From the sequence record PZ754631.1: 51,438 nucleotides of DNA. The stretch is one strand, 5' to 3'. The DNA comes from a phage. Within the stretch, counting starts at the first letter, position 1. Every line of letters begins with the position of its first letter. Below are positions 523 to 13,475 of the stretch, one piece after another. The notes beneath the pieces are model-generated. The model was not told where the DNA came from, searched no databases, and was given only the letters and a program-made list of their open reading frames with translations. The position numbers and the translations under genes were made by a program.

Positions 523-2090
523 TGCTGATTTGGGAAGACTTAACAGCGGCGCAAAAACGCGCCATTAAGGAAATGAGCGAATATTCATTCGAAAAGATGA
601 TCCGCATTTGGTTTCAACTTCTCCAGGGGCAAAGGTTCTTAGGAAACTGGCATTTCAGTTACCTATGCAGCGAAGTTGAAAAAATAATCAAAGGCGAGTC
701 ACAGAACGTAATTTTCAACATAACGCCAGGCAGTGGTAAAACAGAGATATTCTCGATCCACATGTCACCTTATGCGTCATTGAAAAGTAAGAAGGTGAGA
801 AATCTTAATTTGTCGTTTAGTGATGGCCTTGTACAGCAGAATAGCAACCGCATCAAAGAGATTATTGGTTCTCCAGAGTGGCAGGAGCTATGGCCTGGAA
901 AGCTGGCAAAGGCGAGCGCAAAGGATTTGATTGTAACCGATGGCGGCAAGGTTAAATTACAAGTTAACTCGCGCTCTATCGGAGGTCAGGTTACTGGTCT
1001 GCGTGGCGGCTACATGGACGATGGTTTTACTGGTATGTTGGTTCTTGATGATCCAGACAAGCCGGATGACATGCTTTCTAAGGTGAAGCGCGAAGCCGGA
1101 CACATGCGCCTAAAGAACACGGTGCGATCGCGTCGAATGAAGGACACCACGCCAATCGTAATGGTCCAGCAACGGCTACACGTCAATGATTCAACATGGT
1201 TCATGACAAACGGCGGCATGGGCGGCATCCAGTTTAAGGTGGTTAGTATTCCTGCGCTCGTTACTAAGGAATATCGCGAAACGCTTCCTGACTGGTTAAA
1301 GCCTGAGTTTGATCGCGATGTTTTGTCCAGTAAGCCGGTGATGATTGATGGTGTTGCTCATTATTCGTTCTGGCCTGCTAAGGAAAGCGCGGAGGAATTA
1401 CTTGCACTTCGAAATGCTGATCCGTACACATTCGCTAGTCAGTATCAGCAACAGCCTGTTGCGCTTGGCGGTAACGTGTTTAAAACAGAGTGGTTTCAGT
1501 ATTACGGCAGCAGCGAGAAATGCACGCTACCAAAACCGGATCGCTTTGAATATACATTTATCACTGTTGATACCGCACAGAAAACAGGGGAGCTTAACGA
1601 CTACTCAGTGATCTGTTATTGGGGGATGTATAAAGATCGTGTCTACTTCATTGATGGCGTTCGCGGAAAATGGGAAGCACCGGACCTTGAGACGAATTTT
1701 GTTGCATTCGTTAATCAGTGCTGGAAGCGCAATAAAGAATGCGGAACGTTGCGAAGGATTCATGTTGAAGATAAGTCATCTGGCACTGGCTTGATTCAGA
1801 GTGCAGCGAAAAAAATCATGATCAAGATCAATCCCGTTCAGCGCGATAAAGACAAGGTTACTCGCGCAATGGACGCAGCGCCAGTAATGCGCGCCGGACG
1901 CGTAGCACTTCCAGAATCACATCCTATGCTGGCTGAGATACTAGCTGAAGTTGCGGCGTTTACATTCGATGATAGCCATCCTCATGATGATATTGTTGAT
2001 AACATCATTGATGCGGTTAACATTGAAATGAACATGGCAGATGATCCGGTTGGAAGAATGAAAAAATTGGCAGGTTTGCGGAACAAATAG
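522..2090 (+). CDS. terL: terminase large subunit
   Basis: 522 aa; Walker A-like PGSGKT and Walker B-like VLDDPD ATPase motifs, C-terminal nuclease-like region; position before portal. Confidence 0.85.
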   Translation: MLIWEDLTAAQKRAIKEMSEYSFEKMIRIWFQLLQGQRFLGNWHFSYLCSEVEKIIKGESQNVIFNITPGSGKTEIFSIHMSPYASLKSKKVRNLNLSFSDGLVQQNSNRIKEIIGSPEWQELWPGKLAKASAKDLIVTDGGKVKLQVNSRSIGGQVTGLRGGYMDDGFTGMLVLDDPDKPDDMLSKVKREAGHMRLKNTVRSRRMKDTTPIVMVQQRLHVNDSTWFMTNGGMGGIQFKVVSIPALVTKEYRETLPDWLKPEFDRDVLSSKPVMIDGVAHYSFWPAKESAEELLALRNADPYTFASQYQQQPVALGGNVFKTEWFQYYGSSEKCTLPKPDRFEYTFITVDTAQKTGELNDYSVICYWGMYKDRVYFIDGVRGKWEAPDLETNFVAFVNQCWKRNKECGTLRRIHVEDKSSGTGLIQSAAKKIMIKINPVQRDKDKVTRAMDAAPVMRAGRVALPESHPMLAEILAEVAAFTFDDSHPHDDIVDNIIDAVNIEMNMADDPVGRMKKLAGLRNK

Positions 2091-7758: not shown

Positions 7759-8175
7759 ATGGTTGATGAATTTTTCACTGACGCAGAAATCACGCAGCAA
7801 ATCGTGAAATTAGCTCCACCGATGAAACAGATTGATCCAGATTTAATGGTGGCATGGATTGATCTGGCAAAGGAATTTGTTTGCAAGAAGCGGTTTAAAG
7901 AATCATATCCCAAAGCGGTTGCTCTTTATACGTTGCACCTTATGACGCTTGACGGAGCCATGAAGCAAGAGGGGGAAAGCGTAGAAAGTTACTCGCGGCG
8001 AGTTGCGTCATTTTCCCTGACTGGTGAATTTAGCCAGACATTTGATCGCGTGTCCGGCGATTCAAGCGGAAAAGAGATTAGACAAACTCCGTGGGGCAAA
8101 ATGTATGAGACGTTAAATAGAAAAAAAGGCGGTGGATTTGGCCTTGTGACTGGATTTCGGAGGCGCTGCAAATGA
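7759..8175 (+). CDS. head-tail connector/adaptor-like protein
   Basis: 138 aa; position between capsid and neck genes; RBS GGAGG. Confidence 0.45.
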
Positions 8176-8543
8176 ACTATAACGAGATCGCAAGAATGGC
8201 AACCGAAGGAATTAACTTCTTTAGTGATGGCAACGGTGAGTTTAAGTGCATAACGCAGCGTGGAAGCGTTGAAATCATCGGAGGCGAAGAAGTAGAAAAG
8301 CCAGAGATTAGTGTAATGATTAATGGTTTAATTAGATCACCCAAAGTCCGAGAGGTTGACGGCGAGACAATACGAGTAACCGATAAGTTGGGAGTTTTTA
8401 ACAATAAAGTTGAAATTAAGAACGGGTATCATATTGATGTTGATGGTGAATTATATGTTGTAGTTGAAGCAAGACCAATCAGGCAAACCAATGTCACTGT
8501 TGCTTATCGGCCTATTTTGAGAAGGATTTCTGTACATGGCTAA
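8172..8543 (+). CDS. head-tail joining (neck) protein
   Basis: 123 aa; translationally coupled (ATGA overlap) to neighbours in neck module. Confidence 0.45.
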
Positions 8544-9372: not shown

Positions 9373-10035
9373 ATGCATTTACCAAATGGATCGCAAATTT
9401 TCGTTGAGAGCAATCGAGACAGCGAAATCCAAGCAACAGCAGTGTCAAACGCCAAAGATCCTGTTTTCACTGTTGCATCTGGCGGCGCTGCGTACAAGAA
9501 AGGTGATTATGTGATCATCACTGCGTCTTCTTGGGGTAAGCTGATTGATCGTGTTATGCGTGTAAAGGCTAACGGTGAAGAAACAAGCGTAACGCTTGAG
9601 GGCGTTGATACGTCTGATACTAACGCGTTCCCTACTGGCGGCACAGCGTCTTTTGCAAAAATCAGCGCATGGACTGAGATCCCTTGCATTCAGGATTTGT
9701 CGCAGGAAGGAGGCGAACAGCAATACTATACTTATCAGTGTTTGGCAGACGACCAGGAACAGCAGTTACCTACCTATACGAGCGCCGTTTCTCTGACCTA
9801 CACTTTTGCGCACGAATACGATAACGCGATCTATCCGTTACTTCGTACAGCAGATGAATCAAACGCTGTAACAGCGCTTCGCATGTATATACCAAAAGCA
9901 AAAGAGATGCGTTGCTGGGCTGGTGTCCTTTCGTTTAACGAAATCCCGCAGACCACAGTTAACGAAATGGAAACTGTTTCCCTGTCTGTATCCCTGAAAG
10001 GTCGATTCACCTTTCTACCTTCTCAAGTAGCATAA
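9373..10035 (+). CDS. major tail (tube) protein
   Basis: 220 aa; position before chaperone/frameshift pair; followed by strong intrinsic terminator. Confidence 0.75.
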   Translation: MHLPNGSQIFVESNRDSEIQATAVSNAKDPVFTVASGGAAYKKGDYVIITASSWGKLIDRVMRVKANGEETSVTLEGVDTSDTNAFPTGGTASFAKISAWTEIPCIQDLSQEGGEQQYYTYQCLADDQEQQLPTYTSAVSLTYTFAHEYDNAIYPLLRTADESNAVTALRMYIPKAKEMRCWAGVLSFNEIPQTTVNEMETVSLSVSLKGRFTFLPSQVA

Positions 10036-10040
10036 TCACA

Positions 10041-10064
10041 AGGGGCGTTGCGCCCCTTTTTTTG
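10041..10064 (+). terminator. intrinsic terminator after major tail gene
   Basis: AGGGGCG-TTG-CGCCCCT plus T7. Confidence 0.7.
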
Positions 10065-10134
10065 TTACTGTACAATCATGATACACGATTCATAATCAAT
10101 TCTTTTAACAAAAAGTGCTATCAAGGAGAAAGAA

Positions 10135-10452
10135 ATGTCAAAAATGAAATTGACGATTGGGCCGCTTCCTGACTTTAAATTACCAGTGAAATTTGCAATG
10201 CCTAACGGAGAAGATCAAACAATTATCTTCACAGTTCGCCACCGCAAAACAAGTGAGATTCACGAGCGCTACACGTCAGATACTCCAATGAGCGATGTTG
10301 AAATGATCACCTTCCTTGCTTCTGGTTGGAATCTTGATGATGAATTTAACGAAGAAAATATTAAACAGCTTCTTGATTACTACCCAGCAACAGCAATCGG
10401 ATTAACTAGCGCATACATGAAAGCGCTTGCTGGGCAGCGAGTAAAAAACTAA
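10135..10452 (+). CDS. tail assembly chaperone (lambda G-like)
   Basis: 105 aa; ends at stop directly after slippery heptamer AAAAAAC; position before tape measure. Confidence 0.8.
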   Translation: MSKMKLTIGPLPDFKLPVKFAMPNGEDQTIIFTVRHRKTSEIHERYTSDTPMSDVEMITFLASGWNLDDEFNEENIKQLLDYYPATAIGLTSAYMKALAGQRVKN

Positions 10453-10763
10453 AAAGGGCGGTTTACCTGTTTTATCAGAAACCGCCGACAGATGCAGAGC
10501 TTGAGGCTGTTGGCCTTACAAGGGCAGACTATGAAGGAGAAGATCCGCCAGAGGTTATATTTGATGAAAGCATGATGCAATCATGGGATATATTTTGCGC
10601 AATGCAAACGCAATGGAGATGTTCAGGCGGTGGCGCTTACGGATTTGATTATAATGTCTTGCCTATGCTTTTTGAGATTTACAAGGTTGAGGATCGCGAG
10701 ATGGCGCTAAACGACTTGCGAATCATGGAGCAAAAAGCACTTGAAATGATGCATTCAAAATAA
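10135..10763 (+). CDS. tail assembly chaperone -1 frameshift fusion (lambda G-T like)
   Basis: -1 frame is open from the slippery site at 10443-10449 through 10763 with no stop; downstream stem-loop. Confidence 0.7.
10443..10488 (+). other. programmed -1 ribosomal frameshift site: slippery A_AAA_AAC + stop + stem-loop
   Basis: heptamer AAAAAAC 10443-10449, in-frame TAA 10450-10452, 8-bp stem GGCGGTTT/AAACCGCC at ~10457-10486. Confidence 0.7.
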
Positions 10764-10785
10764 GCGCCTACGGGCGCTTTTTTAT
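10763..10785 (+). terminator. intrinsic terminator before tape measure gene
   Basis: AGCGCC-TACG-GGCGCT plus T-run. Confidence 0.6.
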
Positions 10786-10802
10786 TACCTGGAGGATTAA
10801 TA

Positions 10803-13475
10803 ATGTCAGAACAATACGCAGGCTTGACGCTTGGGGTTGATGTTTCTCAACTCAACAATGCTGTAAAGTCTTTGCAGCAATTCAAGAAGGCAAACGACGA
10901 CGCAAAGGGAAGCGTTGAGAGTTTTGTTGATTCAGAGGTTGTTGCAAGACAAAGAGCCAAACAACTGGCTGAGGAATTGGCAAAGCAGAAGCAAGAATTT
11001 AAAGCAATTCAGTCGGCAATAGATCCGACAGCAAGCAAAATGGATAAGTTGCGCCAGGCTGCGACACAGCTTGATGCGCTTTGGAAAAAAGGAATTGTGC
11101 CGGATGATACATTCTTTGAGTTAGGATCAATTCTTGAGACGCAGCAAAATAAACTGATCGCAACTAAGAAGGCGTTAACTGAAGAAGGCCGCGCGGCGCT
11201 TGAGGAAGCAAAAAATAAGGCAAGGGCAGAGGCTGAGGCAAGAAAGTTCATTGCGGCATTGCAGGCGCAAGCTGACGCAGCGGAAAAAACAAAATCAGAG
11301 CTTGTCGAAATGAGAGCCGCACAACTTGGAGTTAGTGCAGAGGCAGCGCCATTTATTGCAAAAATGAAGGAGCAGGAAAAACAAGCCTCAAAACTTGGCG
11401 TTTCTATGGGGCAGTACAAGCAAGCAATGGCACAATTGCCAATGCAGATCACTGACGTTGTTACTTCTCTTGCTTCAGGTATGCCAGTATGGATGATCGC
11501 AATCCAGCAGGGTGGGCAAATCAAGGACTCATTCGGCGGTGTTGCTAATACGTTTAAAGCGCTAATGACATTTGTCACGCCTTTAAGTGTAGGAATGACG
11601 GCGCTGACTGGTGCTCTTGGTTATGCTGCATATAATGCATACAAAGCAAATGCACAATTGAAGGAGATCACAAAAACCGTTCAGGAGGCAACAGGTCTTT
11701 CCGGTGAGTTTGCAGAGCGGATCGCAACTGGAATCCAGGCGCTATCTGACAAGACAGGAGAGAGCGCAGACAATATCGCAAAGGCTTATATAAGCACTAA
11801 GGATGGAGCAAGCGAGGCTATACAAAAACTCGTCGATGTTGGATTTACCTATGACGAAGCAAAGGCAAAAGTAAACGAATACAAAAACGCATCAAGTTTT
11901 GTAAGTCTTAACAATGAAATTGCTGATCATAAAAACAAAGTTCTTGAGCTTGGCGATTCATGGTATGCGGTCTTAAAAGCAAAACGTGATTATGCTTCAC
12001 CGTCCGGCGGGCTGTTGGGGAAAGAACTTGGTTATGTGAATCCAATGCTGCAATTTGCGAAGAACACCTATGAGGATATAAGGAAGATCGTAAAAGATGC
12101 GAATAAGGATATGGCGGAACGAGCAGCACGCATCGACAGAGAAAACCTTTCCTTAAACAGAGTTCGAGCGGCGCAAGAGGCTTTAAACAAAGCCATAGAG
12201 GATCAGAAGAACGTAGCAAGGACAGCAGACGAAGAGTTGAAAAAACGAGCGGCTGAGAACGTGGAGTTCAGGCGAAAAGAGCTTGAAGAGGCGAAGAAGG
12301 CGCAGCAGCAAAAGGAAAAAGTTGGTGGAGTTGTAAAAGCACCAACAGAGCAGCTTGATAAGGAGCTATATGTTCTCAAAGCGCAACTTGAAACACTAAA
12401 AGAGCACCGAACTGTAAATGATGTTATTTCACGCCAGAGGCAATCTTTGTGGAGCATTGAAAAGCAGATCCAGATCCTGGAGGAAGCGCAAAGCAAACGC
12501 AAGCTGACAAAGGCTGAACAGGCGTTACTAAACGAGCAAAAAACAGTTATTGCTATGGCAAAAGAAAAGGCCGAGATAGGCGATCAGATTGTTTTGCAAC
12601 AGAGAAAGAACAAGCAATACCAGGAAGGGCTAAAGTTCATTCAGCAAACTTCAGATGCCATTGATGCTATGAACTTGCGACAGTCTGGAGCTACAGATCT
12701 GCAAATCCAGCGAGAGCTTGAGTTGAAGAAGTTGCGAACTGATTATGTTGCTGGCGGCGGTAGTATCGACGATGAAATTTATCAGCAGATGGAAGCAAAG
12801 CTGAAGGAGTATTACGCCACTGAGGATCAGCTTAGAAATAACTGGATTGCAGGAGCAAAAAACGCATGGGAGGTTTACGGACAAGATGCAATGGATATGT
12901 ACGGCAACGTGCAAGATATTGCAAGCGAGGCGCTCAGCGGTCTAACCAACCAAATGGCTACATTCCTTGCAACAGGAAAGGCAAACTTTAAGAGCTTCGC
13001 AACGTCAATCATCCAAATGATTATCCAGATGATCACGAAGATGGTTATCTTTAATGCCATATCTGGTGCGATTGGAGGTGACACTTGGACGATTGGAAGC
13101 CTTCTTAAAAATGTTGGATTTGCAACTGGTGGATACACTGGCGACGGCGGGAAGTATGAGCCAGCAGGTGTTGTCCATAAAGGCGAGTTTGTCATGACGA
13201 AGGAGGCAACGAAGCGGATCGGAGTTGGAAATCTTTACAAAATGATGCGCGGTTATGCAAATGGCGGCGTTGTTGGCGGCACTTCATACACTGGCGGCGG
13301 AGTTTCATCTGGAGCAACAAATCTTAATATTGGCGGGATCAGCGTTGATATTAACAACGGAAACGATCCGAAAGGATTGGAGACTGGCGTAAAAATGATT
13401 TTCACTGATATGATTAAGCGTTCCTGTACGCAGGGTGGGGAAGTTTACGAATTTGTTATGTCTAAGCGGGGGTGA
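10803..13475 (+). CDS. tape measure protein
   Basis: 890 aa, long coiled-coil-rich ORF downstream of G/GT chaperones; Gly-rich C-terminal segment. Confidence 0.85.

What the first reader, a model, noticed from the sequence alone, without database searches (positions are those of the whole stretch)
10443..10488. Textbook -1 frameshift cassette in the tail chaperone pair
Slippery heptamer A_AAA_AAC, immediately followed by the in-frame TAA stop and an 8-bp stem-loop 7 nt downstream; the -1 frame stays open for a further 105 codons to 10763. This is strongly supported by the sequence and is needed for correct annotation of a G-T-like fusion product.
Basis: seen in the sequence. Interest (0 to 1): 0.35.

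Follow-up and report, generated by a model that had tools for sequence, protein, structure and literature searches.

The report
Tail chaperone -1 frameshift site
This is the ordinary, already-described programmed -1 ribosomal frameshift that lets a T1-like phage make a short and a long tail-assembly chaperone from one message; its main value is to correct gene annotation in this phage genus.

Summary
The window is a T1-like coliphage (Drexlerviridae, Hanrivervirus). Between the major tail gene and the tape-measure gene lies a 105-codon chaperone gene (10135-10452, Pfam Phage_TAC_4). It ends GTA AAA AAC TAA, so A_AAA_AAC (10443-10449) is in the right phase. A 7-nt spacer and an 8+3 bp hairpin (10457-10486, -15.1 kcal/mol) follow. 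The -1 frame stays open for 104 more codons to 10763 (Pfam DUF1799).

The heptamer alone is no commoner than chance, but the combination is strongly conserved:
- The heptamer plus an adjacent stop recurs in 34 distinct junction sequences, out to phages with about 30-40% protein identity.
- 93 of 98 related loci keep the two-frame -1 layout.
- Synonymous-site variability across the G-T region is lowest at the site.
- Only 0.2% of synonymous recodings fold as stably as the native hairpin.

Phage Stevie, of the same subfamily, carries the same site. Its record annotates the joined product and its paper calls the frameshift conserved. The closest relatives do not annotate the join, and the exact 209-aa fusion is absent from a 15-billion-protein collection.

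Verdict: real, correctly interpreted, already known in kind. Low scientific surprise, useful for annotation.

The parts
10124..10128 (+). Shine-Dalgarno-like AGGAG, 6 nt upstream of the chaperone start codon
   Evidence: Read from the sequence. The equivalent position is annotated as a ribosome binding site in Stevie and Shelby.
10135..10452 (+). Short tail assembly (tape-measure) chaperone gene, 105 aa; the lambda gpG analogue and T1 gp40 homologue
   Evidence: ORF. Pfam Phage_TAC_4 PF08748, E 7.1e-30, 104 bits against a cutoff of 21.1. The exact protein is deposited as 'tape measure chaperone' / 'TfmS' in Hanrivervirus records.
10443..10449 (+). Slippery heptamer A_AAA_AAC in X_XXY_YYZ phase (GT[A AAA AAC] TAA)
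   Evidence: Conserved in 33 of 34 distinct junction sequences; the 34th has G_GGA_AAC. It is the same heptamer as the proven IS1 frameshift site (PMC4066793).
10450..10452 (+). Zero-frame TAA stop immediately 3' of the heptamer
   Evidence: A stop (TAA or TGA) directly abuts the heptamer in all 34 distinct related junctions.
10457..10486 (+). Predicted stimulatory RNA hairpin: 8 bp (10457-10464 with 10479-10486), a 2-nt bulge, 3 bp (10467-10469 with 10476-10478) and a 6-nt loop; it starts 7 nt after the heptamer
   Evidence: MFE -15.1 kcal/mol, z -2.56. Only 0.22% of 5000 synonymous recodings of the encoded peptide fold as stably. 82% of cells are paired across 34 relatives against 36-53% in slid controls, but covariation is weak.
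10449..10763 (+). -1 frame extension (104 aa plus stop), the lambda 'T' analogue, carrying DUF1799; with 10135-10449 it gives the fusion CDS join(10135..10449,10449..10763), 209 aa, junction ...GQRVKN-LKRAVYL...
   Evidence: Pfam DUF1799 PF08809, E 3.5e-12, residues 127-206 of the fusion. phrog_17368 covers both halves. The protein alignment is conserved from the first codon after the slip site.
10572..10763 (+). The truncated 63-aa ORF that GenBank relatives annotate in place of the fusion; probably not a separate product
   Evidence: It starts 20 residues inside the DUF1799 match. The 41 codons upstream of it are conserved at protein level.
9373..10035 (+). Major tail tube protein gene (context, upstream neighbour)
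   Evidence: Pfam Phage_tail_3, 1.4e-63; phrog_584.
10040..10068 (+). Terminator-like hairpin plus T-run between the major tail gene and the chaperone gene
   Evidence: Annotated as a terminator at the homologous place in T1, Stevie and Sip.
10762..10787 (+). Terminator-like hairpin plus T-run just after the -1 frame stop
   Evidence: Annotated as a terminator in T1, Stevie, Shelby and Sip.
10803..13475 (+). Tape measure protein gene (context, downstream neighbour)
   Evidence: Pfam TMP_2 3.6e-35 and Tape_meas_lam_C 6.9e-22; phrog_24.

Best explanation
This is a programmed -1 ribosomal frameshift. Most ribosomes translating the chaperone gene (10135-10452) decode AAA-AAC and terminate at TAA, giving the 105-aa chaperone. 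A minority slip one base back on A_AAA_AAC, with the Lys and Asn tRNAs re-pairing on AAA-AAA. They then read CUA at 10449-10451 and continue for 104 codons to 10763. The result is a 209-aa fusion (junction ...RVKN-LKRAVYL...) with the chaperone domain at the N-terminus and a DUF1799 domain at the C-terminus. The hairpin 7 nt downstream, and probably the slowly decoded stop codon next to the site, raise slippage on a motif that is intrinsically weak in E. coli. That fixes a low long-to-short ratio.

By analogy with lambda gpG/gpGT, both forms coat the tape-measure protein, the C-terminal domain recruits the major tail protein, and neither remains in the virion.

Shown here: the sequence anatomy, the family assignments, and conservation of the site and the two-frame layout. 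Inferred: that slippage occurs, its efficiency, the role of the hairpin and stop, and the assembly function.
For: Anatomy and phase.

Gene order (tail tube, TAC, -1 ORF, tape measure) with curated family hits. One PHROG profile spans both halves.

Two-frame architecture: 1144 phage records match the fusion, 1077 cover at least 80% of it, and every row shown is in two pieces. 93 of 98 fetched loci are in the -1 relation.

The heptamer plus adjacent stop is conserved across Tempevirinae, Tunavirinae, Braunvirinae (Rtp), Dhillonvirus BF9, PHB10 and Ralstonia phage Dina, which has G_GGA_AAC TGA.

The T-frame protein is conserved from its first codon, 41 codons before any start codon.

Third-codon-position entropy: the only 5-codon windows below 35% of the regional mean (lowest 0.22, mean 1.23) start at 10440-10446 and span 10440-10460, and entropy stays depressed through the hairpin.

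Hairpin: z -2.56; 0.22% of synonymous recodings are as stable; 82% pairing in relatives.

A_AAA_AAC is a proven, low-efficiency -1 site in E. coli (IS1) (PMC4066793, PMC5009743).

The joined CDS is annotated in Stevie, which has the same heptamer, stop and hairpin, and in Shelby. The literature says the same: PMC4319613, PMC6763657.
Against: There is no direct evidence here for the fusion protein; everything is comparative and computational.

A_AAA_AAC is among the poorer heptamers in E. coli (PMC4066793).

The hairpin is not universal. It is lost or replaced in Rtp, L052, L056, L074/L081 and PHB10. Covariation is no better than a control slid by one column. Its arms also encode conserved R-A-V and P-P residues, so part of its conservation is protein-driven.

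Most Webervirus relatives lack a heptamer and keep only an A_AAA tetramer, so the exact signal is not fixed across the family.

In one search the loci were selected for having the heptamer, so the entropy minimum at the three heptamer third positions is partly by construction. The positions just downstream are not affected.
Confidence: 0.9

Rival explanations
1. There is no recoding. The downstream ORF is translated on its own from ATG 10572 as a 63-aa protein, as most GenBank relatives annotate it, and the open -1 frame upstream of that ATG is incidental.
For: Annotated this way in KarlJaspers, JLBYU09, Poky, Sip and T1. A GAGG lies about 15 nt upstream of the ATG. Some relatives have other possible starts nearer the junction: Rtp rtp36 and BrunoManser bas12_0016.
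Against: The DUF1799 match begins 20 residues upstream of that ATG. The 41 upstream codons are conserved as protein down to 33% identity. The positions of candidate start codons are not conserved, and V is GTT here rather than GTG. A heptamer or tetramer slip site sits at the end of G in every lineage examined. phrog_17368 models the fused protein.
Confidence: 0.04
2. The cause is transcriptional slippage rather than ribosomal slippage. RNA polymerase adds one A in the A6 run, giving an mRNA subpopulation that encodes an in-frame G-T fusion with the junction ...VKK-LKR...
For: A homopolymeric A6 run is present. Inserting one A would put T in frame. Transcriptional slippage is used by some IS elements and bacterial genes (PMC5009743).
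Against: Six A's is, to my own knowledge, shorter than the runs usually needed for efficient slippage (not checked in a paper here). Ralstonia phage Dina has G_GGA_AAC, with only three A's, and Webervirus has A_AAA_G; neither can support polymerase slippage, yet both keep the architecture. The conserved C, the adjacent stop and a hairpin at 7 nt are features of ribosomal, not polymerase, slippage.
Confidence: 0.04
3. It is a coincidence or an artefact. The heptamer and hairpin are chance features, and the two ORFs result from a sequencing indel in one real gene.
For: The bare heptamer occurs at the chance rate. Four related assemblies differ by one A in this run.
Against: The same two-frame layout appears in over a thousand independent phage records. 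The 6-A form is present in 34 distinct junction sequences. The 5-A forms occur in assemblies with other frame breaks, one of them flagged UNVERIFIED_ASMBLY.
Confidence: 0.02

Closest known systems
Tape-measure chaperone frameshift of T1-like phages (Citrobacter phage Stevie CPT_Stevie15/16; Klebsiella phages Shelby and Skenny)
   Same: Homologous genes (Stevie T part 88% identical). Stevie has the identical AAAAAAC TAA and a GGCGGTTT...AAACCGCC hairpin. The joined CDS is annotated. The papers describe it as a conserved translational frameshift (PMC4319613, PMC6763657).
   Different: The window's genus (Hanrivervirus) and T1 itself do not annotate the join. Webervirus members use a non-heptamer A_AAA site instead.
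Lambda gpG/gpGT and the conserved tail-chaperone frameshift class (Levin 1993; Xu, Hendrix and Duda 2004, 2013, 2014, as summarised in PMC5009743)
   Same: Same gene position between the major tail and tape-measure genes. Same -1 direction. Same logic of a short abundant product and a rare C-terminally extended one.
   Different: Different Pfam families: Phage_TAC_4 and DUF1799 here, Phage_TAC_2 and Phage_tail_T in lambda. There is no detectable T-domain homology (hhalign probability 0.7%). Lambda uses G_GGA_AAG six codons before the stop. Here a weaker A_AAA_AAC abuts the stop and is followed by a hairpin.
IS1 insA-insB' frameshift
   Same: The identical A_AAA_AAC heptamer works as a low-efficiency -1 site in E. 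coli and produces a rare fusion protein (PMC4066793).
   Different: It is a transposase, not a structural chaperone. IS1 has no established stimulator (PMC4066793), whereas a downstream hairpin is predicted here.
Haloarchaeal siphovirus HCTV-2 g-t frameshift
   Same: A_AAA_AAC is reported as the g-t shift site (PMC5009743).
   Different: The host is archaeal and the proteins are unrelated. This comparison was not examined here.

Membership tests
Tail assembly chaperone G/GT-type programmed frameshift (Xu-Hendrix-Duda class) | Two ORFs located between the major tail protein gene and the tape-measure gene | tested here: met
   Gene order 9373-10035 (Phage_tail_3), 10135-10452, 10449-10763, 10803-13475 (TMP_2, Tape_meas_lam_C).
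Tail assembly chaperone G/GT-type programmed frameshift (Xu-Hendrix-Duda class) | The second ORF overlaps the end of the first in another frame and lacks a conserved start of its own | tested here: met
   It is in the -1 frame. The first start codon is 41 codons downstream of the junction. The upstream codons are conserved as protein. Candidate starts are not conserved among relatives.
Tail assembly chaperone G/GT-type programmed frameshift (Xu-Hendrix-Duda class) | A slippery sequence in the correct phase within the overlap | tested here: met
   A_AAA_AAC at 10443-10449, in phase.
Tail assembly chaperone G/GT-type programmed frameshift (Xu-Hendrix-Duda class) | The architecture is conserved among diverged relatives | tested here: met
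   93 of 98 loci are in the -1 relation. All tblastn rows shown are in two pieces, down to 28% identity.
Tail assembly chaperone G/GT-type programmed frameshift (Xu-Hendrix-Duda class) | The fusion protein is made at a low ratio and is needed for tail assembly | not testable with these tools
   This needs protein detection and genetics. Only GenBank annotation in relatives and statements in papers are available.
Canonical -1 PRF cassette | X_XXY_YYZ heptamer, a 5-9 nt spacer and a stable downstream RNA structure | tested here: met
   The heptamer is in phase and the spacer is 7 nt. The hairpin is -15.1 kcal/mol and more stable than 99.8% of synonymous recodings.
Canonical -1 PRF cassette | The downstream structure is supported by covariation | tested here: inconclusive
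   82% of cells are paired against 36-53% when slid, and 6 pairs have double changes. But the covariation score is 0.114 against 0.115 at slide -1, and the hairpin is absent in Rtp and some others.
Pfam Phage_TAC_4 (PF08748) | Score above the curated gathering threshold | tested here: met
   104.2 bits against 21.1; residues 1-104 cover profile positions 1-123 of 124.
Pfam DUF1799 (PF08809) | Score above the curated gathering threshold | tested here: met
   46.8 bits against 26; residues 127-206 of the fusion cover profile positions 2-80 of 80.
Lambda G (PF06894 Phage_TAC_2) and T (PF06223 Phage_tail_T) sequence families | Detectable sequence or profile similarity to lambda G and T | tested here: not met
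   The fusion has no hit to either family at E <= 0.01, while the lambda proteins hit them. hhalign of the T alignment against lambda T gives probability 0.7%.

The most novel reading that the evidence does not exclude
The strict adjacency of a weak heptamer to the stop codon is kept from E. coli T1-like phages to a Ralstonia phage, always with a 7-nt spacer including the stop before a structure. This may mean that the long-to-short ratio is set by competition between release-factor action and slippage. The site would then be a termination-coupled frameshift whose output tracks host RF or tRNA status, rather than a plain tandem slip.
Probability: 0.2. Interest if true: 0.35.

Novelty: already known. 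Interest (0 to 1): 0.15.

Why it matters
Biologically it adds nothing new in kind. Tail-chaperone frameshifting has been known since lambda and is already described for T1-like phages.

Its practical value is annotation:
- In this genus, and in T1's own RefSeq record, the long product is missing.
- A truncated 63-aa ORF stands in its place.
- The chaperone ORFs are often mislabelled 'tail length tape measure protein'.

The correct CDS is join(10135..10449,10449..10763). [quoted passage not shown]

Tried and rejected
- **Heptamer enrichment.** The heptamer is not enriched (21 copies against 22 expected), so it cannot carry the argument alone.
- **Whole-window scan for similar configurations.** Two other sites turned up. 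TTTAAAA at 1479 lies in a spurious ORF nested in gene 522-2090. A_AAA_AAA at 8121 merely precedes the next gene's own ATG and is not conserved in T1 or Shelby. Both were rejected.
- **Homology to lambda.** None was found for G or T.
- **Solved structures and NCBIfam.** There was no meaningful match.
- **Covariation as proof of the hairpin.** The result was inconclusive.
- **A Drexlerviridae-plus-frameshift paper (LAPAZ).** It concerned a host mutation and was irrelevant.
- **One literature search** failed on a term that was too short, and one returned nothing.
- **The 5-A variants in four relatives** were considered as natural alternatives. I judged them homopolymer or assembly errors.
- **Upstream Shine-Dalgarno-like stimulator.** None is evident by eye in the 20 nt before the heptamer.
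- **Structure prediction and large protein-database searches** were not run, because the family assignments were already decisive.

Full report
**What is there**

The region reads ...CAG CGA GTA AAA AAC TAA AAA GGG CGG TTT ACC TGT TTT ATC AGA AAC CGC CGA.... The ORF 10135-10452 (105 aa, ending ...GQRVKN) is preceded by AGGAG six bases before its ATG.

- In that frame the last base of GTA plus AAA AAC forms A_AAA_AAC at 10443-10449, in the X_XXY_YYZ phase. TAA follows at once.
- Seven bases later GGCGGUUU (10457-10464) pairs with AAACCGCC (10479-10486). An inner CUG/CAG helix follows a 2-nt bulge.
- The 51-nt segment folds at -15.1 kcal/mol. Shuffles average -8.3, z is -2.56, and 3 of 200 shuffles are as stable.
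- From 10449 the -1 frame reads LKRAVYLFYQKPPTD... for 104 codons, to the TAA at 10761-10763.
- That frame has no ATG, GTG or TTG before 10572.

The stated '105 codons' includes the stop.

**Is it more than chance?**

The heptamer alone is not: there are 21 copies on both strands against 22.3 expected. I scanned all ORFs of 80 aa or more for in-phase heptamers and measured how far the -1 frame extends past the stop. Three of 58 extend more than 100 codons.
- One sits in a spurious ORF nested in gene 522-2090.
- One (A_AAA_AAA at 8121) lies 15 codons before the next gene's own ATG and is not conserved in T1 or Shelby.
- The third is this site.

**Identity of the genes and the phage**

The window is a T1-like coliphage. 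The 767-bp region is 99% or more identical to Hanrivervirus genomes (KarlJaspers, haarsle, pSf-1; Drexlerviridae, Tempevirinae), at almost the same coordinates as in KarlJaspers.

Pfam gives the following:
- Phage_tail_3 for 9373-10035 (1.4e-63).
- Phage_TAC_4 for residues 1-104 of the fusion (7e-30).
- DUF1799 for residues 127-206 (3.5e-12).
- TMP_2 and Tape_meas_lam_C for 10803-13475.
- Lambda M-like and L-like proteins downstream.

The DUF1799 match begins 20 residues upstream of the first possible start codon of the -1 ORF. PHROG 17368 is a 213-position profile. The short protein matches its positions 1-107 and the -1 part matches 109-211, so the family was built from fused proteins.

**Comparative evidence**

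tblastn with the 209-aa fusion finds 1144 phage records, 1077 of them covering at least 80% of it. Every one of the 120 rows displayed is split into two pieces, from 99% down to 28% identity (Ralstonia phages).

I fetched 17 annotated loci and 80 IMG/VR loci and located the end of G and the open T frame in each.
- 93 of 98 loci are in the -1 relation.
- The five exceptions either have one A fewer in the run, or other frame breaks in G or T, or both. One is a record flagged UNVERIFIED_ASMBLY. I read them as homopolymer or assembly errors.
- Among 34 distinct junction sequences, 33 have AAAAAAC followed directly by TAA or TGA. These include T1, Rtp, Stevie, Dhillonvirus BF9 (39% G identity) and PHB10 (33%). 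Ralstonia phage Dina has GGGAAAC TGA.
- Most Webervirus genomes instead end CGT GCA AAA GTT TAA, which contains only the A_AAA tetramer. One Klebsiella phage has CAA AAG CCT TAA, an A_AAG tetramer. Both tetramers are known shift-prone motifs in E. coli (PMC4066793).

The T-frame proteins align without gaps from the very first codon after the slip site (L-[KRI]-x-A..Y..P). The stretch between the G stop and the first ATG is therefore protein-coding.

In a 61-sequence nucleotide alignment of the whole G-T region, third-position entropy averages 1.23 bits. It is 1.5-1.7 just upstream of the site and falls to 0.22-0.40 in the windows spanning 10440-10460. These are the only 5-codon windows below 35% of the mean. 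Entropy recovers only gradually across the hairpin. One caveat: the loci were chosen for having the heptamer, so its three third positions are fixed by construction. The following positions are not.

**The hairpin**

I recoded the peptide synonymously 5000 times using the phage's own codon usage. Only 0.22% of recodings fold as stably as the native sequence. Only 3.4% of a further 2000 give any structure of -12 kcal/mol or better whose first paired base is 5-10 nt after the heptamer.

Across the 34 junctions the proposed pairs are formed in 82% of cells, against 36-53% when the 3' arm is slid. BF9 shows double compensatory changes (UU/AA to CG/CG). The covariation score, however, is no better than the slide -1 control. 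Rtp, L052, L056 and some others lack the hairpin. BF9 and Dina have different G+C-rich hairpins that start at the same 7-nt distance.

I conclude that the structure is probably selected and probably stimulatory in this lineage, but it is not indispensable to the family.

**Mechanism**

The best explanation is -1 programmed ribosomal frameshifting (confidence 0.9) that yields a minor 209-aa fusion with the junction ...RVKN-LKRAVYL....

A_AAA_AAC is a poor heptamer in E. coli. It still shifts above 0.1% without stimulators, and it is the proven IS1 site. Together with G_GGA_AAC it is among the commoner motifs in IS1 and IS3 elements (PMC4066793, PMC5009743). A weak motif assisted by a hairpin and an adjacent stop fits a product needed in small amounts; in lambda the G:GT ratio is about 30:1 (PMC5009743).

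The assembly role is inferred by analogy with lambda and was not tested here. In that model the chaperone domain binds the tape measure and the C-terminal domain recruits the tail tube protein.

**Rivals**

- Independent initiation at ATG 10572, as many GenBank records imply, is contradicted by the domain boundary and by the conserved upstream codons.
- Transcriptional slippage on A6 would give a Lys instead of an Asn at the junction. It cannot explain the Dina and Webervirus sites.
- An artefact is excluded by the number of independent genomes.

**Comparison with known systems**

This is the class defined for lambda G/GT and generalised to long-tailed phages (references within PMC5009743). 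[quoted passage not shown] Joined CDS features are annotated in Stevie and Shelby. Stevie belongs to the same subfamily and has the same heptamer, stop and hairpin.

It is not a sequence relative of lambda G or T. The Pfam families differ, and hhalign gives probability 0.7%. Lambda's G_GGA_AAG lies six codons before the stop.

**What is missing is annotation**

KarlJaspers, haarsle, JLBYU09, vojen, morffagbaw, Sip, Poky and T1 itself list only the short gene, a truncated downstream ORF, or both. The exact 209-aa fusion is absent from a 15-billion-sequence collection, whereas the 105-aa and 63-aa ORFs are present.

**Verdict**

This is an ordinary, already-known mechanism of low surprise. Its practical use is the corrected annotation: join(10135..10449,10449..10763).

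Noticed in passing
window 10135-10763; PHROGs 569, 680 and 17368; RefSeq records of relatives: The chaperone ORFs are widely labelled 'tail length tape measure protein' in PHROG descriptions and RefSeq re-annotations, including T1 ST40 and ST39. The real tape-measure gene is the next one, so this naming error is being propagated.
   Followed up: partly
L050, L051, L055 (Shigella phage 2019SD1) and L073, at about position 896 of each locus: Four related assemblies have GTAAAAACTAA (five A's), which puts T in the +1 frame relative to G. Three of the four (L050, L055, L073) show further frame breaks in G or T, and 2019SD1 is flagged UNVERIFIED_ASMBLY. Homopolymer sequencing errors are the likely cause, not biology.
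   Followed up: yes
L009 and L011 (Webervirus, near 615-627); L016 (near 666-678); L015 (615-624): The slip signal varies across the family. Most Webervirus genomes have only an A_AAA tetramer (GCA AAA GTT TAA). Klebsiella phage K70PH128C1 has A_AAG. Ralstonia phage Dina has G_GGA_AAC TGA. Two Webervirus-like contigs (L074, L081) keep A_AAA_AAC.
   Followed up: partly
window 8121-8127: An in-phase A_AAA_AAA lies near the end of the connector-like gene 7759-8175, and its -1 frame runs straight into the next gene (8172-8543). It is not conserved in T1 or Shelby, and only partly in Stevie, so it is probably chance.
   Followed up: yes
window 10040-10068 and 10762-10787: Terminator-like hairpins with T-runs bracket the chaperone pair, one after the major tail gene and one before the tape-measure gene. 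A weak promoter-like match lies at 10069-10096. Homologous sites are annotated as terminators in T1, Stevie, Shelby and Sip. This suggests transcriptional step-downs that set tail protein ratios.
   Followed up: partly
phage collection hits to window 10036-10802: About 20 records named 'Campylobacter' phage (host Campylobacter jejuni) match this enterobacterial T1-like region at DNA level. That is an unexpected host label for Drexlerviridae-like sequence.
   Followed up: no
window 1345-1611: This 88-aa TTG-start ORF, with an in-phase TTTAAAA, lies wholly inside the 522-aa gene 522-2090 in another frame. It is a spurious ORF, not a second frameshift candidate.
   Followed up: yes
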